A DNA stretch of 32,000 nucleotides from positions 2,250,001 through 2,282,000 of the forward strand of contig NC_008312.1 in assembly GCF_000014265.1 (NCBI RefSeq), written 5' to 3'. This document shows positions 45-31,660 of the stretch, one piece after another. The DNA comes from Trichodesmium erythraeum IMS101. Its GTDB lineage: Bacteria; Cyanobacteriota; Cyanobacteriia; Cyanobacteriales; Microcoleaceae. The translations under genes and the position numbers were made by a program. How positions within the stretch are numbered: the first letter of the stretch is position 1; every line of letters begins with the position of its first letter. The notes under the pieces were generated by a model. That model was not told where the DNA came from, searched no databases, and worked only from the letters and a program-made list of their open reading frames with translations.

Positions 45-1889
45 TTAAAAACTTTTTTCCAATACTAACAAATCTTCTTTAATAGATGAAGTCCGACCAC
101 ACCAAGAACCATAAGATTTTTCTAGAACATTAAAGCCTCGTTCTTCTATCCATTGTAATATTAGATTTTCCCTAAAACCAATCCCTTTCTCTGGCAGATT
201 AATATCTATAGTAAAACCATCCTCTATTTCATAAATAAGCTGTTGAGAACTTTTACCTTTAGTAATCAACTCTTCTGATTCTGAATTAATTAAAAAGCAA
301 ATTAATAAACATCTCCCTCCCGGTTGTAAAACTCTATATATTTCATCAAGAAAATGACGAACTACAGAACTTTGTAAATGAATAAATAAACGGGAAATAC
401 AAACACAATTAACACTTGAATTAGGATAAGGAAAAATAAAATCATTGGCAGATATTTTACCTGTAGAATTGTAGATACAGTGATAAATATTGTACCAGTT
501 AAAATTAAAATTCGGCTTACGAGTCGTAATTTCTTGTTTTATCAAGGAAATAAAATCTTCCGTCATATCAAAACCTTGATAACGACCAGAAGGTTGTAAA
601 TAATGAACTAAAGTATAAGCTACAGTACCAATATTGCAACCAATATCAAGAATATAGTCTGTTGGTTGTAAACCTAATCTTTGAATTAAACTTCCTAATA
701 ACTTGAAGGAATTATTAATAAATTGATTACTAATATCTTTCCCAACTATTTCTAGATATTCCCTATCTGGCAGTGGTAAAAGAGGTGTTAATGCTGTTAA
801 TATAACTATACCCTCACCCCTATTAAACAGAGGAATCAAACAAATTAATGAATGTTTTATTTGATTAATTTGTTCTTGATTTAAAAGAACTTTTATGCGG
901 AATCTAGCATTACCTGCACCAGATAAACTAGGGTGAATTTTTTCCACATCTGGACTAGGTATATTCAGAGTTTGTTCAAAGAAACTAAAATCTTGATTCC
1001 CAACAGAAACTTTAAATCCTTGCACCATACCAGCATCTAAGGAGGCAACCCAACCAGATAAATATAAAACTTGATTTTTAAGTATTACCCGATCGATAGA
1101 ACCCCAAGTAAGTAAAGGATTAATTTTTCGTTTCTTGCCAATAATATCTTTCTTTTCAGAGTTATTTTGAGTATAGTATTGTATCTCTGATGTTTTTTTC
1201 CGCCGCTCCCGTAAACTTAATGCTTCTTGATAAATTTCTATATCTTCGTGATTTATGGCTGATATTTTACCGACTATTTCTTGGTTAGATAATACTTCTT
1301 TAATTAATAATTTATATTCTAAATAAGGATTAGTATTTGGAGCTTCTAATTCATACTCTGACCAATCTAACATTACCTTAAGTTCATATAAATCCTCACT
1401 AAAAAATTCTTGGATACCCACAAAATAAAAATATTTTAGTTGCTCGTTTTGCAGAAAATTTAATTTGATTAGATTCTGCATTTCTGGTTTTTCAGCAAAT
1501 TCTATAAAACTCAAATTAGTATCTTTGGAATTTCCTAAATATTCTTGATCATTTGCTAGTAATATTTGCCAGCTCTTCCAAAAAAAGTAAAGAGAAACTA
1601 ACCGCTTGATCGGATTCCTCAGCCAAATAATTTTTTTAGCTCCCGGAAATTTTTGATTATATTTTGGAGCAGGAAAATGACCATGAATTATTTTGACTTC
1701 TGGCTTTTGTTTGGTTAACATCCGATTCCGAATCTGACCTTTGTGAGGGTAGTCAAAGAAAATTTCTTCTGAGCTATATACCTGTCTAATAACACCCTTA
1801 AATGCAGTACCAGCAGTTCTTGGTATATGAATTGAAATAATTTCTATATTAGTACGATCAGGTTTTATAGTTTGATTTCTTTGGGTCAT
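45..1889 (-). CDS. Three-module enzyme: N-terminal Sulfotransfer_2-like domain, central 'GW' module, C-terminal class I SAM-dependent methyltransferase
   Basis: 614-aa ORF. 'IEIISIHIPRTAGTAF' and 'IIWLRNPIKRLVSLYF' resemble the PAPS-binding motifs of sulfotransferase family 2 (hIPKTgGTs / RdPv.R.vS.y). aa ~258-365 hold the 'LSGWV...NIPSPDVEK' module. 'ILDIGCNIGTVAY' and 'VLQPGGRCLL' are Rossmann methyltransferase motifs. Confidence 0.8.
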   Translation of the reverse strand: MTQRNQTIKPDRTNIEIISIHIPRTAGTAFKGVIRQVYSSEEIFFDYPHKGQIRNRMLTKQKPEVKIIHGHFPAPKYNQKFPGAKKIIWLRNPIKRLVSLYFFWKSWQILLANDQEYLGNSKDTNLSFIEFAEKPEMQNLIKLNFLQNEQLKYFYFVGIQEFFSEDLYELKVMLDWSEYELEAPNTNPYLEYKLLIKEVLSNQEIVGKISAINHEDIEIYQEALSLRERRKKTSEIQYYTQNNSEKKDIIGKKRKINPLLTWGSIDRVILKNQVLYLSGWVASLDAGMVQGFKVSVGNQDFSFFEQTLNIPSPDVEKIHPSLSGAGNARFRIKVLLNQEQINQIKHSLICLIPLFNRGEGIVILTALTPLLPLPDREYLEIVGKDISNQFINNSFKLLGSLIQRLGLQPTDYILDIGCNIGTVAYTLVHYLQPSGRYQGFDMTEDFISLIKQEITTRKPNFNFNWYNIYHCIYNSTGKISANDFIFPYPNSSVNCVCISRLFIHLQSSVVRHFLDEIYRVLQPGGRCLLICFLINSESEELITKGKSSQQLIYEIEDGFTIDINLPEKGIGFRENLILQWIEERGFNVLEKSYGSWCGRTSSIKEDLLVLEKSF

Positions 1890-4730: not shown

Positions 4731-4734
4731 GTAA

Positions 4735-5877
4735 TACCAATTTCATAAACTTAAGCTACACTTTTAGAAGTAACCTATTATAGAAAATGTCCCCATGTCA
4801 GGAGTAGTAAAAATTGAGATAAATGAATCGGTAGAAACTCTCAAAAAACTTTTAAAAAGTGCGAGTACAGCTCAAGAAAAGGAAAGACTTCAAACTATTT
4901 ACTGGTTGAAAACTCAAACAGTAGAAACAGTAAAAGAAATTGCGATAATGTTAGGACGCAATCGAGTCACAGTACAAAAATGGTTAGGGAAATATCGTAC
5001 AGGTGGACTGAATCTTTTACTAGAACCAAAGAAAAATCTAGGAGGGAGGCCAAGTTCAATTCCACCAAATGTAATCGAGAAATTAGAAGCAGAATTGCAA
5101 AACCCGGAAGGTTTCCAAAGCTATGGTGAAATTCAACAGTGGTTAACGACTTGTTTTGACATCGAGCTGTCTTATCGAACAGTTCATCAATTAGTCAGAT
5201 ATAAATTAAAAAGTAAATTAAAAGTTCCACGTCCAAATCACATAAAACAAAATAAAGAAGCTCAAGAAAACTTTAAAAAAAACTCTCATCTCAACTAGAA
5301 GAGAAAATTAAGTTAATTAATAAATATTCGGAAAATCAACTGCCAATTCGCTATTGGTGTCAAGACGAGACTAGAATTGGATTAAAAACTATAACAGGTA
5401 AAGTCATTACTGCTTGCGGTGTTAAGCCCATTGGTTTATATCAATGGCTATTTAAATATCTATGGCTTTATGGTTTAGTAGAACCAAAAACAGGAGATTC
5501 CTTTTTTTATGAATTTAGTCATCTAGATACTCCTTGCTTTGAAAGATTTTTAGAGCTTTTTTCTCAAACATATCCTGAAGAGATTCATATTATTCAACTA
5601 GATAACGGGCGAGGGCATCTAGGGAATGATTTATCTATCCCTGATCACATCATTTTATTATTTCAACCTCCTTATTGTCCCGAAGTTAATCCCATTGAAA
5701 GACTGTGGAAAGAGGTGAAAAAATTCTTGAAAAATCGAGTTTTCGATTCCTTAGATTTCTTACGCAGAATCCTGAGAAATATATTAACTGGATTTAGTCA
5801 AAAAGATATTGCTTCTTGTACAGGATATGATTTTATTCTTGAAGCATTATGTGTAGTCGGACTTTAGGAAATTGGTA
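4735..5877 (+). mobile_element. IS630/Tc1-mariner-family insertion sequence (1143 bp including terminal TA)
   Basis: Terminal inverted repeats TACCAATTTCATAAACTTAAGCTACAC (4735..4761) and GTGTAGTCGGACTTTAGGAAATTGGTA (5851..5877): outer 11 bp perfect, inner part imperfect. Flanked by TAA on both sides (4732..4734 and 5878..5880). Encodes an HTH + DDE transposase. Confidence 0.85.
4795..5867 (+). CDS. IS630-family DDE transposase, two frames joined by a -1 shift at an A8 run
   Basis: orfA 4795..5298 has an HTH/winged-helix N-terminus ('VKEIAIMLGRNRVTVQKWLGKYRTGG'). The -1 frame continues from the A8 run 5275..5282 (A_AAA_AAC context) to the TAG at 5865..5867. That frame carries 'YWCQDETRIG', 'IQLDNGRGH' and 'FQPPYCPEVNPIERLWKEVK', a DD(35)E-type triad. 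Confidence 0.8.
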
Positions 5878-7130: not shown

Positions 7131-8564
7131 TTATTGAAGCTGGAGCAAGTTAGCAATTCTTTTTAATTGTTTAGGAGATTTACATAAAATAGCAAAACCT
7201 TTTCCATCTTTGTGCCATTCAAGTTTATGTACTTCTGGATAACGATTACAAAAATCCCTAACTGCTCTATTAACTGCAGGAAATCTCACACCTTTAGGAG
7301 GCTTTGATTTATAATCATCTACTATAATAATTCCCTGGGGATTTAAAAAAGGAAGTGAGGATTCTAAATCGTGAAAACATCCTTTATAAGAATGGTCTCC
7401 ATTAACAGTAAACAAATCTAAACCTGGCGAATAATTTTTTTGGTAAAATTCAGGATTAAGGAATTCGTTACTATCCCCTTCAATAATTTGATAGTGTTGA
7501 AATTCTCCCATTAATATAGAAGCCATTTCTCTGCCAAAGGGAGTTATATAATCCAGGTTTTTATCCAAAGATATAAAAGTTTTCGGACTACAAGAACTTA
7601 ATACTACTGCCGCGGACCTACCTGTGGCAAAACCAGTTTCTAAAACATTTTTCGGCTGAATTATCTTACAAAGATTACTAATGAAAATTGCTTGATCTGG
7701 GTTCAAATGTCCCTTTTTACACCACAACTTGCTGTCAAATAAATTTTCTAGGTTATTATTCGCGATCGCCTCTTTCACTGGATTAGATTTATGCTCAATT
7801 TTACTACTTTTAACAACACTCCTCACCTGCTGATTTTGTTGCTGTTTAATCTTATTTTTTTGTGGTTTTTGCAAAGTTTGACTGTAACGCTTTTCTCTGA
7901 TACTTAATGCCTGTTTATAAATTTCCATATCCTCACTATTAAGAGTCGCTACTTTCTTGACAATAGAGCGATCGTTGAACACCTCTTTTTTAATTCTTTG
8001 ATAATCAGAATAAATATTATTATTTTCTTGGCTAACTGTTACATCTGGCCAAAAAAGAAGATTTTTTAATTGCTGTAAATCTTCCTCAAAAAATTCCTGT
8101 ATCCCTACAAAGAAGAAATCTTCTAGTTTCATATCTCGCAGATAAACTGACATTATATTTTGATTTTCAGGTATTTGAGCAAACTCCCAAAAACTAAAAT
8201 TTTTCTGCTGTAGCAAATCATAAAATACTGTCCGTCTAAATACCTTATTAAAACAGTAATAAGATATTAAAAAATTAACTGGTTCTCTCAGCCAAATAAT
8301 TCTTTTAGCATCCGCAAATTTATGCTTATATCTAGACCCAGGAAAATGCCCGTGAATCACCCTTACATTAGCATCTCCTTCTTTCATAAACTGACGTTGG
8401 TAATCTTTTTCATAAGGATAATCCAAAAATACTGCTTCTGGACTGTACACTTTGAATAAAACCCTAGTAAAAGCTGAACCAGCAGTTTTTGGCACATGAA
8501 CAGAAATAATTTCCACTCCTGTTTTTTTGTCTTTCATTTCTTTGAAATTAGAACTAATTACCAT
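7131..8564 (-). CDS. Sulfotransfer_2-like domain fused to an O-methyltransferase-like (Methyltransf_24/3-type) class I SAM methyltransferase
   Basis: 477-aa ORF. 'VEIISVHVPKTAGSAF' and 'IIWLREPVNFLISYY' are paralogous to the N-terminus of the 45..1889 product. 'VLETGFATGRSAAVV' and 'DLFTVNGDHSYKGCFHDL...GIIIVDDY' are the methyltransferase motifs. Confidence 0.8.
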   Translation of the reverse strand: MVISSNFKEMKDKKTGVEIISVHVPKTAGSAFTRVLFKVYSPEAVFLDYPYEKDYQRQFMKEGDANVRVIHGHFPGSRYKHKFADAKRIIWLREPVNFLISYYCFNKVFRRTVFYDLLQQKNFSFWEFAQIPENQNIMSVYLRDMKLEDFFFVGIQEFFEEDLQQLKNLLFWPDVTVSQENNNIYSDYQRIKKEVFNDRSIVKKVATLNSEDMEIYKQALSIREKRYSQTLQKPQKNKIKQQQNQQVRSVVKSSKIEHKSNPVKEAIANNNLENLFDSKLWCKKGHLNPDQAIFISNLCKIIQPKNVLETGFATGRSAAVVLSSCSPKTFISLDKNLDYITPFGREMASILMGEFQHYQIIEGDSNEFLNPEFYQKNYSPGLDLFTVNGDHSYKGCFHDLESSLPFLNPQGIIIVDDYKSKPPKGVRFPAVNRAVRDFCNRYPEVHKLEWHKDGKGFAILCKSPKQLKRIANLLQLQ

Positions 8565-10496: not shown

Positions 10497-10561
10497 TTGT
10501 CAAGCTAAAAAATAAAATTTACTCCTAAACATTCAGTTCTCAAGAATAATATCCCCATCTT

Positions 10562-10576
10562 AAAAAAAGGGGGGGG
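10562..10576. repeat. Adjacent homopolymer tracts A7 and G8
   Basis: taAAAAAAAGGGGGGGGtaa read directly. Lies 66-80 nt upstream (on the minus strand) of the 8640..10496 start codon. Confidence 0.9.
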
Positions 10577-10810
10577 TAAATGAATATATAACAATCCAAA
10601 AATAGGTTATTAAAACTTTTATAATAGTTAATTTAAAAGAAAAGCATGAGTAAATTATGACTCCTGAATACTACCAAAATATTACAACTAAAATAGGATG
10701 GCTATAGATATTTTTAGTCTGCTTTTGTAGCCAGATTTAATTATGATTAATGAATAAAGCTATGATCTAAAACTAAAAAATGGCTGATACCTAACAGCTA
10801 ATTCCTAAAT

Positions 10811-12151
10811 TTACTCGAATTTAAAATAATTAGCTTTATATACTCTTAGACCTTTTTCAGAATTAATTTTTTGCGCAACATCATCCAGATTAGGATGTCT
10901 CCCGTGAAGTATTTTTACAGTTCCACATACAAAAAATGGGAAAGGAAATCGACAATTATATTCTGCTGTTAAAGTAGCTATTCTCAATTGACTATTAAAT
11001 AATGCTTCTCTAAAACTAGGTTGATCTGGTTCTCCTGACTTATATAATTTTACCCAATATTCAAAAAACTTTTTCACTTCTGGAGACTTCTTAAATAAAA
11101 TGACTCCTGTATTCATTTGTTGATAACATTCTGGCACTCCATTAACAATACCCGGTATTTTTGTTGGAGCATGAACTGCTGCAATATCAAAATTATCTAA
11201 GATAGCAAATAACTCGGAAAAATCTTCACATATATAAGTATCAGTATCCAGAAATAAAGTGTATTCATAAGGAGAATCATACATATAAACTACTTTATCT
11301 TCAAAGCTATAATATGACTTCTTTACTACCACAGATTTATCAAATTCTTGCTCATTAACTTCTTGATTAGCAAAAATTGTGACTGGAATATTCGGCATTT
11401 TAGCTTTTAAACTTGCTGCAGAAATCTTTGCTTCCTCAATATATTTCTTACCCATTGCTATGTAAACTACCCCTAGAGCTTGGGGGGGATGAAATTGCAA
11501 TTTCACTGAAGCCAGAGGAACAATAGTTTTATCTTTAAGAACAGCTCTAATCGTCAAATCTGCTGTGGTTTTTTGTGGCATTCCAGCTATTCCTAATTCG
11601 GCTACAAAACCACATTTTTTAGCTTTTGGTAATTTTTGATAATGTTTAGCTACACCTAGTCGCTGTTTTCTAATCAAAGCCTGATTAATTACCCGCTCGT
11701 CTTTAACTATTTCTATTTTCATAGCTGGAGATTTTTTCCCTAAAACCCAACCAATTATTTCTATGACATAACTATTAAATTTATCTCCTTTTTGCGGTAA
11801 ATCTATATTGAATCCCCACAGGTAAGCGTCCACAGGTTCTAAAATAATATCTATTATTTCTACAATGGAATTTTCAACTGTTTGAGAACATCTTGTCATA
11901 TTTTTACTTTTAAGCTTTTTCGGTATAATTTCTTGAGTGGTAGGAACAATAGGTGATTGTGCTACTCTCGGTTCCTGATTTTTTTTAAATTCTTCTACCC
12001 ACTTACCAAGTTTATTAGAATATTCTTCTAATACTTGTTTATGTTTATTTATTTGAGAAGAATATTGTGTCAATAGAGCCTTTTTATCCCCTAGTTTAAC
12101 AGGTAATTCTGGCAAATTTTTCTGATTTTTTTGATATTTTTTTTTATCCAA
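10811..12151 (-). CDS. 'GW' module fused to a GT-A-fold (GT8 / nucleotide-diphospho-sugar transferase-like) glycosyltransferase
   Basis: 446-aa ORF. aa ~95-220 'GFNIDLPQKGDKF...IIGWVLGKKSP'. The C-terminal half has 'VVYIAMGKKY', a DxD motif 'FLDTDTYICEDF' and 'NTGVILFKKS'. Confidence 0.75.
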   Translation of the reverse strand: MDKKKYQKNQKNLPELPVKLGDKKALLTQYSSQINKHKQVLEEYSNKLGKWVEEFKKNQEPRVAQSPIVPTTQEIIPKKLKSKNMTRCSQTVENSIVEIIDIILEPVDAYLWGFNIDLPQKGDKFNSYVIEIIGWVLGKKSPAMKIEIVKDERVINQALIRKQRLGVAKHYQKLPKAKKCGFVAELGIAGMPQKTTADLTIRAVLKDKTIVPLASVKLQFHPPQALGVVYIAMGKKYIEEAKISAASLKAKMPNIPVTIFANQEVNEQEFDKSVVVKKSYYSFEDKVVYMYDSPYEYTLFLDTDTYICEDFSELFAILDNFDIAAVHAPTKIPGIVNGVPECYQQMNTGVILFKKSPEVKKFFEYWVKLYKSGEPDQPSFREALFNSQLRIATLTAEYNCRFPFPFFVCGTVKILHGRHPNLDDVAQKINSEKGLRVYKANYFKFE

Positions 12152-20595: not shown

Positions 20596-21160
20596 ATGAC
20601 AGCTATAACCATCAAATTTAACAATATTCTCAGACTAACTGATGACCAATTCTATCAATTATGTCGAGATAATCCCGAAATTAAATTTGAACGTAATATC
20701 AGGGGGGAAATAACAATTATGTCGCCCACAGGAGGAGAAATAGGAAAACAAAATGCTTCTATTATTGCTGATTTTGTAATATGGAACCGTCAAACAAAAC
20801 TAGGAATAGTGATTCGACTCTTCGACCTGTTTCAAACTTCCCAATAATTCTAATCGTTCTCCCGATGTATCCTGGGTTAAATTAGAAAGATGGAATCAAT
20901 TAACTCCCCAACAAAGAGAAAAATTTCCTCCTATTGCCCCAGATTTTGTATTAGAATTAATGTCACCATCTGATAGTTTAAAGGATGTTCAAAATAAAAT
21001 GCTGGAATATATGGATGGAGGAGTAAAATTAGGCTGGCTAATTGATAATAAAAATCATCGTGTGGAAATTTATCGTCAAGGAAAAGAAGTAGAAATACTA
21101 GATTTTCCCACAAATTTATTAGGGGAAGATGTATTACCTGGTTTGATATTAGAGCTTTAG
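20596..21160 (+). pseudogene. Uma2-family (DUF820) putative endonuclease with a single frameshift near 20811
   Basis: ORF 20596..20847 gives '...ITIMSPTGGEIGKQNA...'. After a +1 shift the reading continues as 'FDSSTCFKLPNNSNRSPDVSWVKLERW...PPIAPDFVLELMSPSDS', which joins ORF 20960..21160 ('VKLGWLIDNKNHRVEIYRQGKE'). This is the typical Uma2 layout. Confidence 0.7.
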
Positions 21161-22167: not shown

Positions 22168-25125
22168 TTAATTCAAATCCTTTTTTATACGTTCAAAAAT
22201 ATTTTCGTATGGTTCTCTCTTAAATAAACTGGTTTGTAGTTCGAGAAAATCTGAATACTCTAAGCGACTAATAGTTTCTAAGCAATTCCATTTAGGTCTA
22301 AAATTTTCTCTCCACTTACTCCATACAACTGTTTGACCATGATGGGGAAAGTGAGCAAAACTATACTGAGGGAAAAAATCATGAATAGCTGCAATAACTT
22401 TAAAGACATCACCCATCCAGCTTTTATTTTTTTCCCCCGAAACCTTTTTTAAAGATATGCAACGTTGATGTGATGATTGAGCTTGAGCATAGCTTCCAGG
22501 AAAAGTATCATCAATTAGCCAGATAGTCTTTAAATGTGAGCAAGCAATAGATGCACAAAAGTCACGAAAACTTTGTTCAAAGGTGTGAAGACCGTCTAAG
22601 TAAATAAGGTCAAATGGAGTATATTCCTGAGCGTAATTCCTAAAAAAATCATCACTAGCAACTTCAAGAAAATTAATATTTTCAGTAGCATATTCGCCTG
22701 TATTAAACTGAAATTTTGGATCTACAGCTACTTTAGATTTGATATTAATTGCATTAAAGGTTTTACCTTCAGATACACCTATTTCTAGATATCTAAATGA
22801 TTCATTTATAGTAGCAAGTTGGTTAAGACGACCATCTCTGGTTGTAATCTCTTTACTTTCAAAAATATTAGAAATGGAGTTATCTTTTAATGTAGTTCGC
22901 ATCTTTAAATACTTTTCTTTTACAGCCAAACAATAAACTTTATTTTGATTCTTTAATAACTTAGATCCTCTATCTATATAGGCCATTACATCAGAATTTT
23001 CTTGAGCTAAGAAATCATCTTCTCTCCAGTTTTCTAAGATAGCAAAATTTTGGTTTCTCAGAGATTCAACTATTTGAAAAGGATTTTTGGCTATGGAAAT
23101 TGAATATGGCGCATCTTTAGTATTATAAGCTCCTAATCTCATAGCATTATCTACACCCCCAGCTATAATATAATTTGAACACTTATTATAAATATGTGGA
23201 TAAAAATTAACGTTATTTCCTCTTCTGGGAATACATACAATATCTGCCTCTAAATAACTCAGAAACTCTAACAGATATATAGCACTTCCTTCCACAAATA
23301 TAATTTTTTTTGCACTTATTAAATAAGATAACTGTTCTAGAATATTGTAATTTTCCGGCTGGATAGAAACATAACCCTCATTCAACAAACAATTCTCCAA
23401 ATATTTTTCCCCAGCTACTCCCCCACGAAGCAAAATATGAGACCTACCAAAAAAGAGTTTTAAATCTTGTTTCTCTTTTCTAAGTTGATTAGTCATCTCC
23501 AAAATTCTCTGCTGTAGTCTCTCTAGATATGAGCAATACCATTCCTTGACTCCTACTGACAGCTCGCTACCTGGTTCTGGAATAATCAAATTTTCAAAAG
23601 TGCAGTTATATATCACAAAAATGCACTTTTCAAGAGAAATGTTGAAAATTTTTAAGATTTGAATTAACCATTGAGGAGGATTAAATGAAGCTGAATTGCT
23701 CCCTACAGGTAAAGCAAAAACTAAACCATCATGTAATTTGGGATTGAATGCCCAAATGCGATGGATACTTTCTGTGAGAACATGTCCAAAATGAAATATT
23801 AAAGGTCCTGCATAAATGTATGTACCTTGATAAAAATTTGAACTATAGGTTTGATTTTTACTATTATCAATGACATTTACTTCTTTGGAATTATCGACAA
23901 TTTCTGGTCTATCTATGTATATAGGTTCATTTTTACCTACTAATTTCCCTGAGCGTCGATGACGAAAAACTCCAGGCATATTCTCTGGAAAACAAACACC
24001 TCCCATCCATTCGTAATTGCTCTTAATTTCAATTGGTTTAACAACTGCATTGTTAATTTTGAATAATCGGGATTCGTCACTATAATCTATCTGTTCTTTA
24101 TTTGTCTTAGATAGTTCTTGAATTTTTTGATGAGCTTCTTGACAGCTAGAGTCTATAGATATTATCTTTTGGTATAAAAAACCAGATGGCTGTGTTTTTT
24201 TTGCAGTTTGTTGAACTTGGTGTAACTCAAATTTAGTCTGTTCTAACTCTTTCTGATTACTATCTAGTTGGGACAAAGACTCTTCCAATGTTGCCATTGT
24301 CTCCTCCAACTGAGACTGATATTTCTCCAACAATTCCTCAGTCTCTCGCCACTGAGACTTAGTTTCCTCTAACTCTTTGTGCAACTCTGACTCTACTCCC
24401 AACTGCTTCTCTGCTAACTCCCCCTTAACCTGCTCCAGCTCTTCATGCTTCTGCTGCAACTTCCCTTGGGACTCCTCCAATGCCCCCATGGTCTGCTCCA
24501 TTTGAGACTTATACTCCTCTAACACTCCCATCATTTCACCTAACTGGGACTGGGACTCCTCTAGCAATTGTTCAGTCTCCTGCAACTTGGCCTTAGTTTC
24601 TGCCAACTCCTGCTTAACTTGTCCATTGGCTTCAGATTGATGTTGCTGTCCTTTTTCTTTGAACTGATGTAACTCAAAGTGGGTTTGCTCCAACTCTCCC
24701 AATACCTCATCTAATTGAGATTGCGATCGCTCCAACTCTTCCCTCACATCATGGAACTCTGACTTAGTTTTGTCCAACTTTTGCTGAGTTTCTTGCCATT
24801 TGGCCTTAAATTCTTCTGTTTCTTTTTGAGACTGGGACTCCTGCAACAACTTTTCTGTCTCCTGCAACTTGGCCTTAGTTTCTGCCAACTCCTGCTTAAC
24901 TTGTCCATTGGCTTCAGATTGATGTTGCTGTCCTTTTTCTTTGAACTGATGTAACTCAAAGTGGGTTTGCTCCAACTCTCCCAATACCTCATCTAATTGA
25001 GATTGCGATCGCTCCAACTCCTCCCTTACATCATGCAACTCTGACTTAGTTTTGTCCAACTCTTCCTGAGTTTGTTGCCACTTGACTTTAGTTTCCTCTA
25101 ATTCTTTTTCTATTGCTATTACCAT
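22168..25125 (-). CDS. N-terminal ~320-aa coiled coil + GT61/DUF563-like glycosyltransferase + C-terminal class I SAM methyltransferase (Methyltransf_24-like)
   Basis: 985-aa ORF. The E/Q/K/L-rich heptad-like N-terminus contains a 94-aa duplication. 'YIYAGPLIFHFGHVLTESIHRIWAF' and 'ISAKKIIFVEGSAIYLLEF' fit GT61. 'FRYLEIGVSEGKTF' and 'FDLIYLDGLHTFEQSFRDF...IWLIDD' are methyltransferase motifs. Confidence 0.8.
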   Translation of the reverse strand: MVIAIEKELEETKVKWQQTQEELDKTKSELHDVREELERSQSQLDEVLGELEQTHFELHQFKEKGQQHQSEANGQVKQELAETKAKLQETEKLLQESQSQKETEEFKAKWQETQQKLDKTKSEFHDVREELERSQSQLDEVLGELEQTHFELHQFKEKGQQHQSEANGQVKQELAETKAKLQETEQLLEESQSQLGEMMGVLEEYKSQMEQTMGALEESQGKLQQKHEELEQVKGELAEKQLGVESELHKELEETKSQWRETEELLEKYQSQLEETMATLEESLSQLDSNQKELEQTKFELHQVQQTAKKTQPSGFLYQKIISIDSSCQEAHQKIQELSKTNKEQIDYSDESRLFKINNAVVKPIEIKSNYEWMGGVCFPENMPGVFRHRRSGKLVGKNEPIYIDRPEIVDNSKEVNVIDNSKNQTYSSNFYQGTYIYAGPLIFHFGHVLTESIHRIWAFNPKLHDGLVFALPVGSNSASFNPPQWLIQILKIFNISLEKCIFVIYNCTFENLIIPEPGSELSVGVKEWYCSYLERLQQRILEMTNQLRKEKQDLKLFFGRSHILLRGGVAGEKYLENCLLNEGYVSIQPENYNILEQLSYLISAKKIIFVEGSAIYLLEFLSYLEADIVCIPRRGNNVNFYPHIYNKCSNYIIAGGVDNAMRLGAYNTKDAPYSISIAKNPFQIVESLRNQNFAILENWREDDFLAQENSDVMAYIDRGSKLLKNQNKVYCLAVKEKYLKMRTTLKDNSISNIFESKEITTRDGRLNQLATINESFRYLEIGVSEGKTFNAINIKSKVAVDPKFQFNTGEYATENINFLEVASDDFFRNYAQEYTPFDLIYLDGLHTFEQSFRDFCASIACSHLKTIWLIDDTFPGSYAQAQSSHQRCISLKKVSGEKNKSWMGDVFKVIAAIHDFFPQYSFAHFPHHGQTVVWSKWRENFRPKWNCLETISRLEYSDFLELQTSLFKREPYENIFERIKKDLN
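24548..25111. repeat. Two tandem copies of a 282-bp unit (94 aa) inside the coiled-coil region of 22168..25125
   Basis: Anchor 'gtctcctgcaacttggccttagtttctgcc' occurs at 24575 and 24857. Long stretches are identical, including the HIP1 sites at 24723 and 25005. Confidence 0.9.
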
Positions 25126-25782: not shown

Positions 25783-28700
25783 TTATTTATCATTACTTAC
25801 CAAAACCTTTTGTTGAATTCTCATAGTGCGTTTCATCAGATTTTGCCATTCTTCATAACTTGTAAGTTTTTCACTATCAAACTCTAGACCTTTTTCCTGA
25901 AAGAAATTAGCAAACCTATCTAACCAATCCATAACTACTTCTGTGCGAGAAATTTCTGTATATTTCAAGGACTTCTGAAGGCGCTCTTGCATCTCAGCTA
26001 AATTATTATTTTGATAAGCATACCATGCTTCCCATACTAACAATTTATATTCTGTTTTACCCTCTGATTTTAAATCTCTCAAAATAGCTTGCTGATATTG
26101 CAATTTCTCTAACTCCGACTTGGTTTCTATTAGTTGAGACTTAGTTCCTACTAATTCTTTCTGCACATTTTGTTGTTGAGATTGGGACTGTTGCAATAAT
26201 ATTTCTGTTTTCCGCCATTGAGTCTGAATTTCTTGCAATACTGCCTGAGTTTCTTGTAGCTGTATTTGCATATTTTCCCGTTCTTCATCAGTTTGATGTA
26301 GTTGAGTTTTAAACTCTATTAATAAGGATTTTGTTTGTTGTGATTGAGAATTAGATTTTTGCAAGAGTGTTTCTGTCTGCTGAAGTTGAGAATTAGACTC
26401 TACTAATTCTGTTTTTGTCTGCTGAAGTTGAGAGTTAGACTCTACTAATTCTGTTTTTGTCTGCTGAAGTTGAGAATTAGACTCTACTAATTCTGTTTTT
26501 GTCTGCTGAAGTTGAGAATTAGACTCTACTAATTCTGTTTTTGTCTGCTGAAGTTGAGAATTAGACTCTACTAATTCTGTTTTTGTCTGCTGAAGTTGAG
26601 AATTAGACTCTACTAATTCTGTTTTTGTCTGCTGAAGTTGAGAATTAGACTCTACTAATTCTGTTTTTGTCTGCTGAAGTTGAGAATTAGACTCTACTAA
26701 TTCTGTTTTTGTCTGCTGAAGTTGAGAATTAGACTCTACTAACTCTATTTGAAGTTCTTGATTTTGTAGTTGCGATCGCTTCAACTCTTGTTTAGTTTTA
26801 TGTAACTCAGACTTTGATATTTCCCATTTGTTTTGACTTTTTTGAATTTCTTTTAATTCTGCTTCTGACTTTTCCCATCTTGTTTCTTTGTCTTTTAGTT
26901 GAGAATTAGATTCTGTTAAATCTGCTTGAGTTTGATTCAGTTGAGATTGAATTTGTTGTAATTCTTGGTGAGTTTTTTGCAAGTCAGATCCAGACCTTTC
27001 TAATTCTAGTTTAATCTTTTCTAGCTCAGAATTAGATTCTGTTAACTCTGCCTCTTTTGCCTGCAATATTGCCTCAGTTTCTGTTAACTTAGACTGAGTT
27101 TGCTGTTTTTGTTCTTCAGCCTGTTTTAGCTGAGATTGATTTTTTTCTACTTCTTGGTGAGTTTTTTGTAAGTCAGATCCAGACCTTTCTAATTCTAGTT
27201 TAATCTTTTCTAGCTCAGAATTAGATTCTGTTAACTCTGCCTCTTTTGCCTGCAATATTGCCTCAGTTTCTGTTAACTTAGACTGAGTTTGCTGTTTTTG
27301 TTCTGTAGCCTGTTTTAGCTGAGAGTGATATTCTTCCAACAGAACCTCAGTTCCTGCTAACTGAGACTGATATTTTTCCCACTCTTCCTGACTTTGATGT
27401 AGCTGATATTTATAAATGAATAATTCACCTTTACTTTCCGACAAATTCTGTCTTGTTACTCCTAATTCTATCTGAGTTCGTTGAAGTTGTGAATAAGTAT
27501 CTTCTAATGCTTTTTCTGCATCTTGTAAATCTTGCTGATATTTTTTTAAAACTACCTCTTTTGCTACTAATTGTGATTGAGAAGATTCCCAAAATTCTTG
27601 AGTTTTGTGTAGCTGATTTTGGCTAGTTTTTAATTTAATTTTAGTCTCGTACAGACTATGTTTTGTTTGTCCTAATTCCGCTTGATTTTGTTTATCTTGA
27701 AATTTAAATTTATCCAATAATTCTTCATTAGTTTCTAGCTGAAATTTCAATTCTTTCCATGCTAATTCTGCTTCCTGAAGTTTACATATATTTTTTTCTA
27801 ATTCTTCTAGATTTTGATGCAATTGTGACTGATATTGTACTAATTCCCCTTGAGTTTCATCTAGCTTAGATTGTGTTTCTAGCAACTCTTTTTGTGTCCC
27901 TTGATATTTTTGTAATTCACCTTCTTTTTCCTTTAGCTCTGACTGACATTGTATGAGTTCAGTTTTAGTTTCATTTAACTGGGATTTAGCAGTAGCTAAT
28001 TCATTTTTAGTTTGGTCAAATTTAGTTTGAATCTGTTGAACTTTTTGAAACTCATCCTGTGTTTTTTCTAATACTTTTTCTTTGTTGTGGAGTTGTTGTT
28101 GAGATTCTGATAATTTCGCCTCTGTACCATTTAGTTGAGAAACATATTTTTCTAAATCATCTTGTGTTTTTGTCAACTGAGACTTTACTTCTGTTAACTC
28201 TAACTGACTTTTTTCGTATACTTTTTCTTTGTTGTGGAGTTGTTGTTGAGATTCTGATAATTTCGCCTCTGTACCATTTAGTTGAGAAACATATTTTTCT
28301 AAATCATCTTGTGTTTTTGTCAACTGAGACTTTACTTCTGTTAACTCTAACTGACTTTTTTCGTATACTTTTTCTTTGTTGTGGAGTTGTTGTTGAGATT
28401 CTGATAATTTCGCCTCTGTACCATCTAGTTGAGTAATATATTTTTCTAACTCATCTTGTATTTGTATTAACTGAGACTTTACTTCTGTTAATTCTAACTG
28501 ACTTTTTTCGTCTTGATTTTTATACTTTTCTAGTTCTACTAGCAGAATTTTATTTTGTTTTCCTAAGCTCGATAAATTCATCCAATCTTGAAATGCCCAA
28601 TTTCTATAGGGAGATGATTTAATTTTTTCTTGCCAAGAAAAGTCTAGTGTTTCATCTTCTGCTTTCCATGATCTTGCTTCTAACTCCTGATACATTTCTA

Positions 28701-29412
28701 TAGCTTCAGGAAAGTAATAATCTATGATAGTAGGTCTATGACTTTCTGTTGATACTCGATTATTAAATAATAATGGATCATAATTATTTACAACAGGATA
28801 ATTAAAATTTGTCTTAAATTTTTGATTTATTTTTTCGATAAATACTTCTTGACTATTAATTATTGTTTGAATATTTGTCAACAGGCAACGATCAGCAGCA
28901 TAATTATAAAAATCAATAATTTTTTGGTTGTAGTGTAACCATAATTTTATGGCTAGTTCTGGCTGGTTTTGAAATATCTGATATTGCTGATTATACAGAG
29001 AATTAACTACTTCCCAAGGAGACCGATAAATCAATATAAATTTAGCATTTGGTAGTAGGTATGACCAAAAATCTAGGAATAAAGTTGTCCGGGGTTCTTT
29101 CCATCCCCAATTTTCACTTATTGAGTTTTTGGCAATAATTTCTCTAGCTTTTTCTTGAAAGCTTTCTTCTACATCTATTTTTTCTTGTAAAGTCCACCCA
29201 TCCTCATCTATACCTTGGGATTGTAATACATTTTTATGAAATTCATAGAAGTCTAAATTTTCAAAATCTCCTTTAGTATTGTATTCATTTCCCTTCATTA
29301 ATTTCCGGCCTATGTGCAAACCTGCACTTTGGAGGATAGAAGCTGTTAAGGAACTTCCCGAACGGTGCATACTGCTAATAATTAGAGTTGATTTTTCTGT
29401 TCTATGCATCAT
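25783..29412 (-). CDS. N-terminal P-loop sulfotransferase domain followed by a ~800-aa coiled coil built from nested tandem repeats
   Basis: 1209-aa ORF. 'LIISSMHRSGSSLTASIL', 'WGWKEPRTTLFLDFW' and 'FILIYRSPWEVVNSL' are sulfotransferase motifs. The rest is Q/E/K/L/S/T-rich with repeat families of 14, 49 and 63 aa. The short C-terminal tail is non-repetitive. Confidence 0.85.
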   Translation of the reverse strand: MMHRTEKSTLIISSMHRSGSSLTASILQSAGLHIGRKLMKGNEYNTKGDFENLDFYEFHKNVLQSQGIDEDGWTLQEKIDVEESFQEKAREIIAKNSISENWGWKEPRTTLFLDFWSYLLPNAKFILIYRSPWEVVNSLYNQQYQIFQNQPELAIKLWLHYNQKIIDFYNYAADRCLLTNIQTIINSQEVFIEKINQKFKTNFNYPVVNNYDPLLFNNRVSTESHRPTIIDYYFPEAIEMYQELEARSWKAEDETLDFSWQEKIKSSPYRNWAFQDWMNLSSLGKQNKILLVELEKYKNQDEKSQLELTEVKSQLIQIQDELEKYITQLDGTEAKLSESQQQLHNKEKVYEKSQLELTEVKSQLTKTQDDLEKYVSQLNGTEAKLSESQQQLHNKEKVYEKSQLELTEVKSQLTKTQDDLEKYVSQLNGTEAKLSESQQQLHNKEKVLEKTQDEFQKVQQIQTKFDQTKNELATAKSQLNETKTELIQCQSELKEKEGELQKYQGTQKELLETQSKLDETQGELVQYQSQLHQNLEELEKNICKLQEAELAWKELKFQLETNEELLDKFKFQDKQNQAELGQTKHSLYETKIKLKTSQNQLHKTQEFWESSQSQLVAKEVVLKKYQQDLQDAEKALEDTYSQLQRTQIELGVTRQNLSESKGELFIYKYQLHQSQEEWEKYQSQLAGTEVLLEEYHSQLKQATEQKQQTQSKLTETEAILQAKEAELTESNSELEKIKLELERSGSDLQKTHQEVEKNQSQLKQAEEQKQQTQSKLTETEAILQAKEAELTESNSELEKIKLELERSGSDLQKTHQELQQIQSQLNQTQADLTESNSQLKDKETRWEKSEAELKEIQKSQNKWEISKSELHKTKQELKRSQLQNQELQIELVESNSQLQQTKTELVESNSQLQQTKTELVESNSQLQQTKTELVESNSQLQQTKTELVESNSQLQQTKTELVESNSQLQQTKTELVESNSQLQQTKTELVESNSQLQQTKTELVESNSQLQQTETLLQKSNSQSQQTKSLLIEFKTQLHQTDEERENMQIQLQETQAVLQEIQTQWRKTEILLQQSQSQQQNVQKELVGTKSQLIETKSELEKLQYQQAILRDLKSEGKTEYKLLVWEAWYAYQNNNLAEMQERLQKSLKYTEISRTEVVMDWLDRFANFFQEKGLEFDSEKLTSYEEWQNLMKRTMRIQQKVLVSNDK
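26377..26754. repeat. 42-bp tandem array, 8 near-identical copies plus 1 diverged terminal copy (14-aa unit LVESNSQLQQTKTE)
   Basis: Unit ctgctgaagttgagaattagactctactaattctgtttttgt tiles exactly from 26377 in 42-nt steps. The only substitution in copies 1-8 is A>G in copy 2. A degenerate copy lies at 26335..26376. Confidence 0.95.
26964..27325. repeat. Two tandem copies of a 189-bp unit (63 aa)
   Basis: Anchor 'cttggtgagttttttg(c/t)aagtcagatccagacc' occurs at 26964 and 27153. The copies are nearly identical over ~170 nt. Confidence 0.9.
28073..28513. repeat. Three tandem copies of a 147-bp unit (49 aa)
   Basis: Anchor 'actttttctttgttgtggagttgttgttgag' occurs at 28073, 28220 and 28367. The protein repeat is 'EKSQLELTEVKSQLTKTQDDLEKYVSQLNGTEAKLSESQQQLHNKEKVY'. 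Confidence 0.9.
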
Positions 29413-30693
29413 GTTTATTTTGATTATGTATTGCTGAATATTAGTAAGTACTTACATAAAACCATTTACCTATTCTAATTCTCTGCAATTTTTATAATGC
29501 AAATAATTTCCTTATATAAATGTGTAATTGTAATTAATTTTGTGTACTTACTTATTTAGTATATAATTTAATTTTAACCTTTTTTCAAATAATTAATAAC
29601 CCTTCCATAGCATTCCATAGAAACATAAAGTAATCCCAAGAGTTTGCTTTATTTTTATCTAAGTTAGGTGTTCTATATTTATTTTATCTTGTTACCATTA
29701 TTTATGTATATTTGTCAACCAATTTTAAATTCCCATTTTAGAAAGATATCATACCTCTAAAGGAATATTTCACTAGATCACAACTTACATAAAACCACCT
29801 CTAGAGATGATGTATAATTTTATATGATTACTTAATCCAGATTTATCACATCTTATCGTCAATAGTATATTAATCTGCTACTACTCAAAATCATCAATCA
29901 ATTATATTTTAGGGTAGAAAAATTATTTTTTTTGACAAAAATTAAAGCTAATTAGTTTCCTTCTTTAATCCTAGAAAAATTAAAATTCATGGATTCCTCA
30001 AAAAAAATTTATTACAAAAGTTTGTTATTGTAATTGATGCTTAAAAATGCGTCATATTATTACCTCTTTACCTGCAAATAATCACTCTTTCTTAATTTTA
30101 TACAGAGAAATATTATCCGAGAATTGAGATAGAAAACAGAATTAAATAATAACAACTATATTTATTCTTATGCCCTACTTCAACACAGACATTTCAGACT
30201 AATAAACTAAAATTGGGCCATCTTAATTTGCTTATATCTTAATTCCATCTTTTTGACAAAATCGTTTAAATAAAACATCTTTTTCTCAAGCTATAATCAG
30301 AACAATTAGTTTAATTTTTATGAAACTGGGAACCATAAATACTATTAGCTATAGAATAACTGTAATTAGAATTATGCATATGTTGTCCTGCTTAACATAT
30401 TCTAAATATCCCTTTCTCTCAAATTAAAGCTATTCCTGATACTAGGTGATATTTCGATATAAAATATACGTATCATAATATAACCCTGATTAGATAAAAA
30501 AGGACTGTCATAAAATTTCAGTATATTTTGAGATTAAAGATTATATTGAGCCCCTCAATTTACATAATATAATCACTCAGTTTTTAGCTATATTCTTCAT
30601 ATTATTACTCAGAAAACTATAATTTTTATCTTCCTTTTAGATTATTCTAATTTTGATAATTATCAGAAGTATATAAAATCAACTTGTGGCAAA

Positions 30694-30727
30694 TTATAGA
30701 TAAATTATCTATATAATTTATCTATAA
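30694..30727. repeat. Perfect 14-bp inverted repeat with a 6-nt spacer
   Basis: TTATAGATAAATTA (30694..30707), tctata, TAATTTATCTATAA (30714..30727). Located in the ORF-free AT-rich region. Confidence 0.8.
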
Positions 30728-31237
30728 AATCTATCCTTACCTTTATTACACAACCAAATAATTGACTTAAAACTTTATGGGTAATATTGTTCAGATATAT
30801 TCTGTATTGATATGTTGCTTTAATATTTCCCCTGATTGACCGTACCTATATCATAACATAAATCATATATACGCATTAGAGAAACATCTTAAAAATAATC
30901 AATATAATATAATAACATATGATAATAGCCAGATTAAATTCAGGTAATATGCAATAACACAAGGGAAAATTAAATTTCAAGTAATAGATAATTTGCCAGA
31001 ATTTGTTATCGAATTAACTGAACAATAAAGAATTTTTGTAAGTAATTAAACTCCCTTATAAGAGGGAAGCTTGAAATCCACTTTTTTGGTAAATTTAAAA
31101 ATATTAAACTAAGTATCTGACACAGTATAACATTTATTCTATAATGCTAACTACCTCATATAAATTTCATTTTATCTCAAGCTATTAGCAGAATTAGTCT
31201 GCTCAAGTAGTAGGCATTCTTAACATCCTCCTTAGCT

Positions 31238-31416
31238 GTTAGGTGCGCGGGGCTTCTTGCGAGCCGCATCTCCTGGGGGGTTAACCTTTTGCACTTAGTA
31301 AAACTTCCCACTCTATTGGCTGCTACAATTCTAGTCGCGAGCACGAAACATTACCCTAGTCTTGTGTTTGCCTAATAAGTCCGTTTTTTGTCTGATGACT
31401 GCCCGCTCGCTACTAA
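31238..31416. ncRNA. GC-rich, hairpin-forming island: candidate structured RNA or fragment of an RNA element, unclassified
   Basis: My count gives ~58% G+C over 31241..31300 against ~20% over 31081..31140. A local hairpin at 31251..31265 reads GGCUC-GCAA-GAAGCC on the minus strand, giving a GNRA loop. A long-range 10/11 complement links TAGTCGCGAGC (31332..31342) and GCTCGCTACTA (31405..31415). No tRNA, rRNA, RNase P or tmRNA signature was recognised. Confidence 0.25.
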
Positions 31417-31660
31417 TTAATTAACAGAACTAACATAATGTTTTCAAAAAAAACAACTAAAAAATCGCACGCTTATGGGCGAGGCTTTAAATCTAATTTT
31501 TCGGTAAACAAGTAGTAATTTTGTACCTTACCTCCTGAAAATGGAATGAATTTAGCAACAATATCCTGACATATTTACAACTAGCAAATAGTGTAGAATA
31601 TTATTAATAAGTAATATTATTCCACCCTCAATTATCAAATACAGGAAACTCTATATAACA

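What the first reader, a model, noticed from the sequence alone, without database searches (positions are those of the whole stretch)
26377..28513. Near-perfect in-frame tandem repeats whose periods preserve heptad register
Inside one gene there are three independent arrays: 42 bp (8 near-identical copies plus 1 diverged copy, 14 aa = 2 heptads), 189 bp x 2 (63 aa = 9 heptads) and 147 bp x 3 (49 aa = 7 heptads). The neighbouring gene has 282 bp x 2 (94 aa), which is not a heptad multiple.

The 42-bp array has a single substitution across eight copies. That implies very recent expansion or ongoing homogenisation. Gain or loss of units would lengthen or shorten the rod in quantised steps of ~2 nm per 14-aa unit without breaking the coiled-coil register.

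This is the kind of locus expected to be length-polymorphic between strains, and it is easily collapsed in short-read assemblies.
Basis: seen in the sequence. Interest (0 to 1): 0.65.

Follow-up and report, generated by a model that had tools for sequence, protein, structure and literature searches.

The report
Length-variable coiled-coil stalk of a sulfotransferase
The repeats are real, recent, in-frame duplications inside the roughly 120 nm coiled-coil stalk of a cyanobacterial sulfotransferase, and in this protein family the stalk gains and loses length in seven-residue steps between species and strains.

Summary
Observation confirmed. Gene 25783..29412 (-) (1209 aa) carries in-frame arrays of 147 bp x3, 189 bp x2 and 42 bp x9 (plus 2 decayed copies). 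The neighbour 22168..25125 (-) carries 282 bp x2.

The protein has three parts:
- a sulfotransferase-fold head with conserved putative PAPS-binding motifs;
- about 830 aa of Pro-free heptad coiled coil with nearly continuous 3.5-residue phase;
- a conserved 77-aa helical module that elsewhere trails catalytic modules of multi-glycosyltransferase proteins.

The family is widespread in Oscillatoriales. Its stalks are built from degenerate 14-aa units, and the DNA keeps a 21/42-nt periodicity. Of 37 tallied indels between close orthologues, 25 are multiples of 7 aa, and 10 of the other 12 fall in the 3- or 4-residue classes. Relatives have one copy where the window has nine.

Near-identical short-read assemblies gap, break or shorten at these arrays. 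Two show a different unit order.

The stalk's function is inferred: most likely a spacer between the enzyme head and a docking module, perhaps a WbdD-like ruler. No ABC transporter lies nearby.

The parts
25783..29412 (-). Gene 1: 1209-aa protein with a sulfotransferase head, a coiled-coil stalk and a C-terminal helical module
   Evidence: ORF. About 219 homologues at E<=1e-20, all in filamentous cyanobacteria, usually 660-830 aa. Orthologues of 709-1110 aa in Dapis, Trichodesmium MAGs and Okeania.
28564..29412 (-). N-terminal sulfotransferase-fold domain (aa 1 to about 283)
   Evidence: Pfam Sulfotransfer_3 scores 25.4 bits, just under the 27-bit cut-off; homologues score 30-33 bits. MHRSGSS and YRSPWEVVNS are (nearly) invariant in 33 family members; I read them as the 5'-PSB and 3'-PB PAPS-binding motifs from my own knowledge. 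AF2 model pLDDT 81, pTM 0.83; top Foldseek PDB hits are TPST1/2, the CurM and Ols sulfotransferases and HS 3-OST, E 2e-5.
26077..28563 (-). Coiled-coil stalk (aa 284 to about 1112), about 120 nm if continuous
   Evidence: Periodicity at 3.5 residues with near-constant phase and only 3-4 stutter-like steps. 0 Pro and 12 Gly in aa 290-1060; rich in Q, E, L, K, S and T. AF2 gives one continuous helix for aa 1052-1112.
28084..28524 (-). 147-bp (49-aa) array x3, aa 297-443
   Evidence: Copies 2 and 3 are identical. Trichodesmium MAG_R04 has one copy fewer and Dapis M229 two fewer. L001 has a 100-N gap here and contig L003 starts here.
26965..27342 (-). 189-bp (63-aa) array x2, aa 691-816
   Evidence: 11 nt differences between the copies. 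Reproduced in L002 and L003.
26368..26745 (-). 42-bp (14-aa, ELVESNSQLQQTKT) array, nine near-identical copies, aa 890-1015
   Evidence: Relatives lack 112 aa (8 units) here. L001 and L002 are gapped, L003 has 5 copies, and L004 and L005 have a different unit order.
26284..26367 (-). Two decayed 14-aa units (aa 1016-1043)
   Evidence: 15 and 14 differences out of 42 from the unit consensus.
25828..26058 (-). Conserved C-terminal 77-aa helical module (aa 1119-1195)
   Evidence: Highly conserved in the family. The AF2 model of the C-terminal 159 aa (pLDDT 85) gives a TPR-like bundle of five helices, with only weak PDB matches (E about 0.3). No Pfam or PDB sequence hit. 179 representative proteins at E<=1e-3. 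In the multi-module glycosyltransferases examined it follows GT2 and GT4 modules, up to four copies per protein.
22168..25125 (-). Gene 2: 985-aa protein with a segmented N-terminal coiled coil (about 310 aa), a GT61 domain and a Methyltransf_24 domain
   Evidence: The gene 1 - gene 2 pair is conserved in Dapis, Okeania and MAGs.
24529..25092 (-). 282-bp (94-aa) array x2 in gene 2
   Evidence: Each unit contains the break KEKGQQHQSEANGQ, where the heptad phase jumps. The Dapis orthologue has one copy: the gaps of 36 and 58 aa add up to 94 aa. Logan contigs end here.

Best explanation
SHOWN
- The arrays are genuine, recent, in-frame tandem duplications.
- They lie in the coiled-coil stalk that separates an N-terminal sulfotransferase-fold head from a conserved C-terminal helical module.
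- The gene sits in a cluster of sulfo-, methyl- and glycosyltransferase genes of a filamentous cyanobacterium of the Trichodesmium/Dapis/Okeania clade.
- Throughout this family the stalk is made of degenerate 14-residue (two-heptad) units.
- The coding DNA keeps a 21/42-nt periodicity.
- Length differences between close relatives are mostly multiples of 7 residues. The exceptions are mostly in the 3- or 4-residue classes.
- Stalk spans range from about 85 aa to about 846 aa.

INFERRED
- The periodic DNA lets replication slippage or unequal recombination misalign units in register, so units are gained and lost about 1 nm per heptad.
- Selection for an unbroken rod removes the other products, leaving the stammer and stutter classes that coiled coils tolerate.
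- The stalk is a parallel homo-oligomeric spacer. It holds the sulfotransferase at a strain-specific distance from whatever the C-terminal module docks to, probably a multi-enzyme glycan-assembly complex.
- Repeat gain or loss would then retune that distance. This is the logic of the WbdD and WbbB molecular rulers, without membership of that family.
For: - Arrays and reading frame.
- Heptad phase continuity. No Pro in the stalk.
- Sulfotransferase head.
- Family-wide 14-aa unit, with 51 of 55 tandem-repeat periods a multiple of 7.
- Orthologue and strain indels, 25 of 37 multiples of 7 and 10 of the remaining 12 congruent to 3 or 4 mod 7.
- Cryptic DNA periodicity, identity 0.485 at lag 42 against a mean of 0.33 at lags that are not multiples of 21.
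- Recent expansion relative to Trichodesmium MAG_R04 and Dapis.
- Differences between near-identical assemblies.
- Stalk span from about 85 aa (447-aa proteins of Lyngbya PCC 8106 and Limnoraphis) to 846 aa.
- C-terminal module following GT2 and GT4 modules in the multi-module glycosyltransferases examined.
- Glycan-type gene context and conserved synteny with a TPR protein and the coiled-coil-GT61-methyltransferase gene.
- Coiled-coil rulers as a hallmark of glycan-terminating enzymes: PMC11231755 and PMC5082667.
Against: - No experiment or structure shows the oligomeric state, orientation or binding partner.
- No ABC transporter, Wzx or Wzy gene lies in the 32-kb window or within 10 kb of the orthologues. 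The only ABC protein seen is of the oligopeptide type.
- No other ORF in the window carries the C-terminal module.
- Extreme length variation between near-identical strains could equally mean that length is unconstrained.
- The bias towards multiples of 7 can be produced by mutation alone.
- The substrate is unknown. The best fold matches are tyrosylprotein sulfotransferases, so a protein substrate is not excluded.
- The nine-copy count rests on the window assembly only.
Confidence: 0.6

Rival explanations
1. Length-neutral tether. The stalk serves only for oligomerisation or tethering. Its length drifts freely because slippage in periodic DNA is frequent and in-register products are harmless. 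Copy number has no functional read-out.
For: - Large length differences between near-identical strains and species.
- The mutational bias alone predicts periods that are multiples of 7.
- Units that are not multiples of 7 (38, 31, 17 and 11 aa) also vary.
- Classical spacers are conserved in length (PMC5082667), and this one is not.
Against: - The stalk is retained in every family member and keeps a clean a/d pattern, without Pro or frameshifts, over more than 800 aa.
- The exceptions to the rule of 7 are confined to the structurally tolerated classes of 3 and 4 residues, which argues for selection on rod integrity.
Confidence: 0.3
2. A true WbdD/WbbB-type chain-terminating molecular ruler. 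Sulfation caps a growing polysaccharide, and stalk length sets the modal chain length.
For: - The layout of enzyme head, extended coiled coil and docking region parallels WbdD.
- The docking module is shared with multi-GT2/GT4 proteins that look like polymerases.
- The gene context is a glycan cluster.
Against: - No wzm/wzt genes nearby.
- No sequence similarity to WbdD or WbbB.
- The C-terminus is a helical bundle, not an amphipathic membrane helix.
- The stalk is about six times longer than WbdD's 20 nm.
- I found no report of sulfate as a chain terminator in the papers I read.
Confidence: 0.2
3. Assembly artefact. The near-perfect arrays, especially the nine 42-bp copies, are mis-assembled.
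For: Other assemblies gap, break or shorten at these arrays.
Against: - 147x3, 189x2 and 282x2 are reproduced in independent assemblies.
- The 42-bp array has at least 5 copies in L003, and at least 6 and 4 in the truncated contigs L004 and L005, with distinct unit variants.
- Equivalent arrays occur in orthologues and in Mb-scale contigs of other genera.
Confidence: 0.05
4. A cytoskeletal or SMC/ParA-like protein, as some database names suggest ('chromosome partitioning protein ParA', 'chromosome segregation ATPase').
For: Database names. Weak NCBIfam hits to SMC, Rad50 and HmpF over the coiled coil.
Against: - Those hits score 87 bits against a 567-bit cut-off (SMC) and 35 against 200 (HmpF), and they cover only the coiled coil.
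- There is no ATPase head. The head is a sulfotransferase fold.
Confidence: 0.05

Closest known systems
WbdD (E. coli O9a / Klebsiella O3) and WbbB (Klebsiella O12) coiled-coil molecular rulers of ABC-transporter-dependent O-antigen synthesis
   Same: A glycan-modifying enzyme sits at one end of an extended coiled coil and a docking region at the other. Engineered insertions or truncations of the WbdD coiled coil change the product's chain length (PMC5082667; PMC11231755). Here nature makes such insertions and deletions through tandem repeats.
   Different: - No sequence homology.
- The head is a sulfotransferase, not a kinase/methyltransferase or a Kdo transferase.
- The C-terminus is a TPR-like module, not an amphipathic membrane helix.
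- No wzm/wzt genes nearby.
- The stalk is about 50-125 nm in the Trichodesmium/Dapis/Okeania orthologues, against about 20 nm.
- The function is untested.
Streptococcal M proteins: size variants generated by intragenic repeats
   Same: A dimeric coiled-coil rod with tandem sequence repeats. Size mutants arise at high frequency within a strain (PMC2188411).
   Different: M proteins are secreted, wall-anchored surface fibrils under immune selection. This protein has no signal peptide and carries a cytoplasmic-type enzyme head.
Cyanobacterial coiled-coil-rich proteins and HmpF
   Same: Long Q/E/L-rich coiled coils in filamentous cyanobacteria. There is a weak NCBIfam HmpF hit.
   Different: The hit scores 34.6 bits against a 200-bit cut-off and covers only the coiled coil. 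HmpF has no sulfotransferase head or C-terminal module. The comparison otherwise rests on my own knowledge.
Tyrosylprotein sulfotransferases and the CurM/Ols sulfotransferase domains (Sulfotransfer_3-like)
   Same: Fold and conserved putative PAPS-binding motifs of the head.
   Different: None of these carries a coiled-coil stalk. Identity is 12-20%, and the substrate here is unknown.

Membership tests
Canonical heptad coiled coil | Hydrophobic periodicity of 3.5 residues with a persistent a/d register | tested here: met
   Fourier power is 5.5 at period 3.5 against less than 1 elsewhere. The phase is constant over aa 285-1045 apart from 3-4 steps of about +50 degrees.
Canonical heptad coiled coil | Uninterrupted helix (no Pro, few Gly) | tested here: met
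   0 Pro and 12 Gly in 771 aa. AF2 gives a single helix for aa 1052-1112.
Canonical heptad coiled coil | Oligomeric state and parallel or antiparallel orientation | not testable with these tools
   Only monomer prediction is available, and the protein exceeds the 1200-aa limit.
PAPS-dependent sulfotransferase (Sulfotransfer_3 / TPST-like) | Profile match above the curated cut-off | tested here: inconclusive
   The window protein scores 25.4 bits against the 27-bit cut-off. Orthologues P0003 (32.7) and P0040 (30.4) pass.
PAPS-dependent sulfotransferase (Sulfotransfer_3 / TPST-like) | 5'-PSB and 3'-PB PAPS-binding motifs | tested here: met
   M15-H-R-S18-G19-S-S21 and R130-S-P132-W133-x-V135-x-x-S138 are invariant or nearly so in 33 members. 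The assignment of these motifs rests on established knowledge of the family.
PAPS-dependent sulfotransferase (Sulfotransfer_3 / TPST-like) | Sulfotransferase fold | tested here: met
   Foldseek gives TPST1/2, CurM and Ols sulfotransferases and HS 3-OST as top hits: E 2e-5, probability 1.0, TM 0.42-0.53.
WbdD/WbbB-type molecular ruler | Chain-terminating enzyme at the distal end of an extended coiled coil | tested here: inconclusive
   A modifying enzyme and a coiled coil are present. Terminator activity cannot be tested here.
WbdD/WbbB-type molecular ruler | Membrane-associated amphipathic helix and polymerase recruitment site, or fused polymerase GT modules, at the proximal end | tested here: not met
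   The C-terminus is a soluble-looking five-helix bundle. No GT is fused. The module is, however, shared with multi-GT2/GT4 proteins.
WbdD/WbbB-type molecular ruler | Location in a cluster with the wzm/wzt ABC transporter | tested here: not met
   None in the window or within 10 kb in the orthologous loci scanned.
WbdD/WbbB-type molecular ruler | Coiled-coil length determines glycan chain length | not testable with these tools
   Needs genetics and glycan analysis.
M-protein-like size-variable surface fibril | Signal peptide and cell-wall anchor | tested here: not met
   The N-terminus runs straight into the PAPS loop, and the C-terminus is the helical module.
M-protein-like size-variable surface fibril | Intragenic tandem repeats that give size variants between strains | tested here: met
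SMC / Rad50 / ParA (database names) | ATPase head and a score above the family cut-off | tested here: not met
   SMC_prok_B scores 87 bits against 567, over the coiled coil only.

The most novel reading that the evidence does not exclude
The stalk is a naturally tunable molecular ruler. Gain and loss of 7n-residue repeat units resets, strain by strain, the distance between a sulfotransferase and a glycan-polymerising complex. That would dial the chain length or sulfation pattern of a cyanobacterial surface polysaccharide, a repeat-driven contingency mechanism for glycan architecture rather than for on/off expression. The 77-aa C-terminal module would be a new docking domain shared by the catalytic modules of such assembly lines.
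Probability: 0.2. Interest if true: 0.75.

Novelty: new member of a known kind. Interest (0 to 1): 0.5.

Why it matters
Coiled-coil rulers in glycan synthesis have been studied with engineered insertions in a few enterobacterial proteins. This family offers hundreds of natural length variants in Trichodesmium, Okeania, Planktothrix, Limnospira and Microcoleus. Their stalks range from about 85 to about 846 residues.

Two questions become directly testable by comparing strains:
- Does stalk length set a property of sulfated cyanobacterial polysaccharides?
- Which register shifts does a long coiled coil tolerate in vivo?

There is also a practical point. These genes are systematically gapped, truncated or split in short-read assemblies and MAGs. 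Many are misnamed as ParA or SMC.

Tried and rejected
- **Exact protein look-up.** Looking up the 1209-aa protein found nothing. Strain-level comparison therefore had to use contigs found through gene 2 and the 220-aa neighbour.
- **Metagenome scan.** A scan with the C-terminal region found only other species, at 59-84% identity, and no further strains.
- **Genome scan.** It gave no 100% match. The closest are Dapis, Trichodesmium MAGs and Okeania at 77-84% in the head, so the organism is placed only to clade.
- **C-terminal domain.** The PDB sequence search gave no hit. The fold search gave only weak TPR-like matches at E about 0.3.
- **C-terminal module elsewhere in the window.** A profile of the module finds no second copy in the window.
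- **Rfam.** No match in the window.
- **Literature.** No paper on this family turned up. The WbdD ruler paper PMC4650267 is not held, so it is cited through a review and a later paper.
- **SMC/ParA/HmpF readings.** Rejected, because the hits cover only the coiled coil and fall far below the cut-offs.
- **Intramolecular antiparallel hairpin.** Okeania insertions of +126 and +28 aa both lie in the C-terminal half of the stalk. This argues weakly against a hairpin, but a movable apex cannot be excluded.
- **Antisense ORF 28059..28436 (+).** I take it to be a by-product of the repeats: its translation repeats with them.
- **Stalk lengths of gene 1 against gene 2.** Too few intact pairs to test a correlation.
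Full report
**1. The observation**

Tandem Repeats Finder reports four strong arrays in the region:
- 42 bp x 9.1 at 26368-26750, 98% matches;
- 189 bp x 2.1 at 26942-27336, 95% matches;
- 147 bp x 3.1 at 28062-28511, 96% matches;
- 282 bp x 2.0 at 24548-25109, 92% matches.

The first three lie in one ORF on the minus strand, 25783..29412 (1209 aa). The fourth lies in the next ORF downstream, 22168..25125 (985 aa). All are in frame, giving units of 14, 63, 49 and 94 aa.

Read copy by copy, the 42-bp array has nine near-identical units, ELVESNSQLQQTKT:
- Units 2-7 are identical.
- Unit 1 has a synonymous A>G and unit 8 a synonymous T>C.
- Unit 9 has an A>G that changes K to E.
- Two decayed units follow, with 15 and 14 differences out of 42.

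Only the substitution count is slightly off: three in nine copies, not one in eight.

**2. What the gene is**

*Head.* The first ~283 residues are a sulfotransferase-fold domain.
- Pfam Sulfotransfer_3 scores 25.4 bits, just under the 27-bit cut-off. Orthologues pass at 30-33 bits.
- MHRSGSS and YRSPWEVVNS are invariant or nearly so in 33 family members. I read them as the two PAPS-binding motifs, the 5'-PSB loop and the 3'-PB motif; that assignment is from my own knowledge of the family.
- An AlphaFold2 model (pLDDT 81, pTM 0.83) matches tyrosylprotein sulfotransferases, the CurM and Ols sulfotransferase domains and heparan-sulfate 3-O-sulfotransferase at E 2e-5.

*Stalk.* Residues ~284-1112 form a coiled coil.
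- The hydrophobic pattern has a sharp peak at period 3.5: power 5.5 against less than 1 at other periods, and 0.15 in the head.
- Its phase stays almost constant for ~760 residues, with only three or four stutter-like steps of about +50 degrees.
- There are no prolines.
- AF2 models the last 60 stalk residues as one helix.

*C-terminal module.* The last ~90 residues are strongly conserved.
- They fold with high confidence (pLDDT 85 for the modelled C-terminal 159 aa) into a bundle of five helices. It resembles TPR proteins only weakly, at E ~0.3.
- It has no Pfam or PDB sequence match.
- An exhaustive search of 1.8 billion representative proteins finds the module in 179 proteins at E<=1e-3.
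- Besides the stalked sulfotransferases, ten other carriers were scanned. Most are multi-module glycosyltransferases in which the module follows GT2 and GT4 catalytic modules, up to four times per protein, often with TPR repeats.
- I infer that it is an adaptor or docking element of glycan-assembly enzymes.

**3. Context**

The window is a glycan-type island. It contains:
- five ORFs with sulfotransferase domains;
- several with methyltransferase domains;
- a 1740-aa TPR-GT2-GT1 protein;
- gene 2, which is a coiled coil fused to GT61 and a methyltransferase.

The order TPR protein (divergent), gene 1, gene 2 is conserved in Dapis, Okeania and related MAGs. No ABC transporter, Wzx or Wzy gene lies in the window or within 10 kb of the orthologues.

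The head is 77-84% identical to those of Dapis, Trichodesmium MAGs and Okeania. Together with ~33% G+C, this places the organism in that clade. A paper notes that sulfotransferases are abundant in Trichodesmium (PMC8205485).

**4. The family and its length variation**

A database search gives 219 homologues at E<=1e-20. Those with names come from filamentous cyanobacteria, mostly Oscillatoriales. Most are 660-830 aa, and many are misnamed ParA or SMC. The window protein is the longest seen.

The span between the head and the module ranges widely:
- ~85 aa in the 447-aa proteins of Lyngbya PCC 8106 and Limnoraphis (my estimate);
- 306-441 aa in most homologues;
- 346-706 aa in Dapis and Okeania;
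- 846 aa in the window protein.

Three independent tests support the heptad-preserving reading.
- *Array periods in orthologous genes.* The high-identity arrays found by TRF in 21 orthologous genes are 42, 84, 126, 147 or 210 bp. The exceptions are 114 and 177 bp, plus three short or low-identity arrays of 24, 57 and 72 bp.
- *Tandem repeats in homologues.* In the 120 homologues, 51 of 55 distinct protein tandem repeats have a period that is a multiple of 7. The common building block is a degenerate 14-mer, ELEQSQSQLHQTQx.
- *Indels between close orthologues.* Pairwise alignments place the stalk indels at sizes of 7, 14, 21, 28, 42, 49, 56, 63, 70, 84, 98, 105, 112 and 126 aa.
   - 25 of 37 hand-tallied entries are multiples of 7. 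Some entries are shared between pairs. The binomial p is 2e-13 if they are treated as independent.
   - Of the other 12, ten are congruent to 3 or 4 mod 7 (38, 31, 17, 11, 4 and 3 aa). These are the stammer and stutter classes that coiled coils accommodate (PMC5082667).

**5. Recency and polymorphism**

Against Trichodesmium MAG_R04 the window protein has +49, +70, +105 and +112 aa. Against Dapis M229 it has +98, +49, +112 and +7 aa. The 14-aa array is therefore a lineage-specific expansion from one unit to nine.

Okeania species differ by one to three copies of a 42-aa unit and one copy of a 28-aa unit.

Groups of Planktothrix, Microcoleus and Limnospira proteins with 92-100% overall identity differ by 14, 28, 38, 56 and 63-aa units. 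Some of these come from Mb-scale contigs.

For the window's own species, assemblies with 99.3-100% identical flanks behave as follows:
- L001 has 100-N gaps exactly at the 147-bp and 42-bp arrays.
- L002 has a gap at the 42-bp array.
- L003 starts inside the 147-bp array and has only five 42-bp units, without the T>C unit.
- L004 and L005 start inside the 42-bp array and show a different order of GAG, GAA, K and E unit variants. Simple collapse cannot produce this.
- Logan contigs end inside gene 2's 282-bp array.

The prediction that the locus is polymorphic and fragile in short-read assemblies is borne out. The absolute copy number of nine remains unverified.

**6. Why multiples of seven**

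After the recent extra copies are removed, the stalk-coding DNA still matches itself best at a lag of 42 nt. Identity there is 0.485, against a mean of 0.33 at lags that are not multiples of 21. Further peaks fall at 21, 63, 84 and 126 nt.

Misalignment during replication or recombination is therefore biased towards in-register products. The confinement of the exceptions to the 3- and 4-residue classes suggests an additional structural filter. Both steps are inferences; only the pattern is shown.

The neighbour's 94-aa unit is not a counter-example. Each unit contains a Gly-rich segment, KEKGQQHQSEANGQ, at which the heptad phase jumps. Gene 2's coiled coil is thus segmented rather than continuous.

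**7. Mechanism and comparison with known systems**

The best-supported reading is a spacer. An enzyme head is held at a strain-specific distance from a docking module that is otherwise attached directly to glycosyltransferase modules.

This is the logic of WbdD and WbbB. There, a terminating enzyme sits at the far end of a coiled coil, and engineered length changes alter O-antigen chain length (PMC11231755; PMC5082667).

Membership of that family is not supported:
- there is no homology;
- there is no amphipathic membrane helix;
- there is no wzm/wzt gene nearby;
- the stalk is several times longer.

The repeat behaviour itself is a known kind, best documented for streptococcal M proteins (PMC2188411).

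A length-neutral tether remains a serious rival, because length varies so freely. Assembly artefact and the SMC/ParA readings are rejected.

**8. Verdict**

It is a new, well-populated example of a known phenomenon, in an uncharacterised enzyme family with an undescribed C-terminal module. The functional claim (ruler or spacer) is inference. I put it at about 0.2 for a true chain-length ruler, and at about 0.6 for the overall spacer and repeat-dynamics account.

Noticed in passing
window 25828-26058 (aa 1119-1195 of gene 1): The 77-aa C-terminal helical module has no Pfam or PDB match. It recurs after GT2 and GT4 catalytic modules in multi-module glycosyltransferases (up to 4 copies per protein) and at the C-terminus of small 160-230 aa proteins. 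It looks like an undescribed adaptor domain.
   Followed up: partly
L009, L011, L013-L015 (Okeania) and P0036, P0040, P0090, P0109 (Planktothrix): A 38-aa unit (3 mod 7) varies in copy number (0 to 2 extra copies) in two distant genera. Stalk indels that are not multiples of 7 are almost all congruent to 3 or 4 mod 7.
   Followed up: partly
window 20596-20847 and 20960-21160 (+): A Uma2-family endonuclease gene is split into two ORFs here and in L002 and L003. It is intact (187 aa) in L004, L040 and L041, so this is a strain-level pseudogene difference.
   Followed up: no
window 29413-31600: About 2.2 kb of AT-rich sequence (24-28% G+C) upstream of gene 1 has no ORF of 60 aa or more and no Rfam match. 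It contains a 13-bp repeat at 30700-30735.
   Followed up: no
window 4023-4075: An octanucleotide microsatellite, TCTCCCCA x4.9, lies in the intergenic region between two minus-strand genes of the cluster.
   Followed up: no
window 45-12151: There is an unusual density of fused modifying enzymes: sulfotransferase plus methyltransferase (45..1889 and 7131..8564) and three further ORFs with sulfotransferase domains. A transposase-like HTH ORF at 4795..5298 sits in the middle.
   Followed up: no
L024 8983-10326 and L025 6025-7368: Lyngbya PCC 8106 and Limnoraphis carry 447-aa short-stalk members of the family, with about 85 aa between head and module. These are convenient minimal versions for structural work.
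   Followed up: no
window 28059-28436 (+): A 125-aa antisense ORF lies across the 147-bp array. Its translation repeats with the array, so I take it to be a by-product of the repeats, not a gene.
   Followed up: yes
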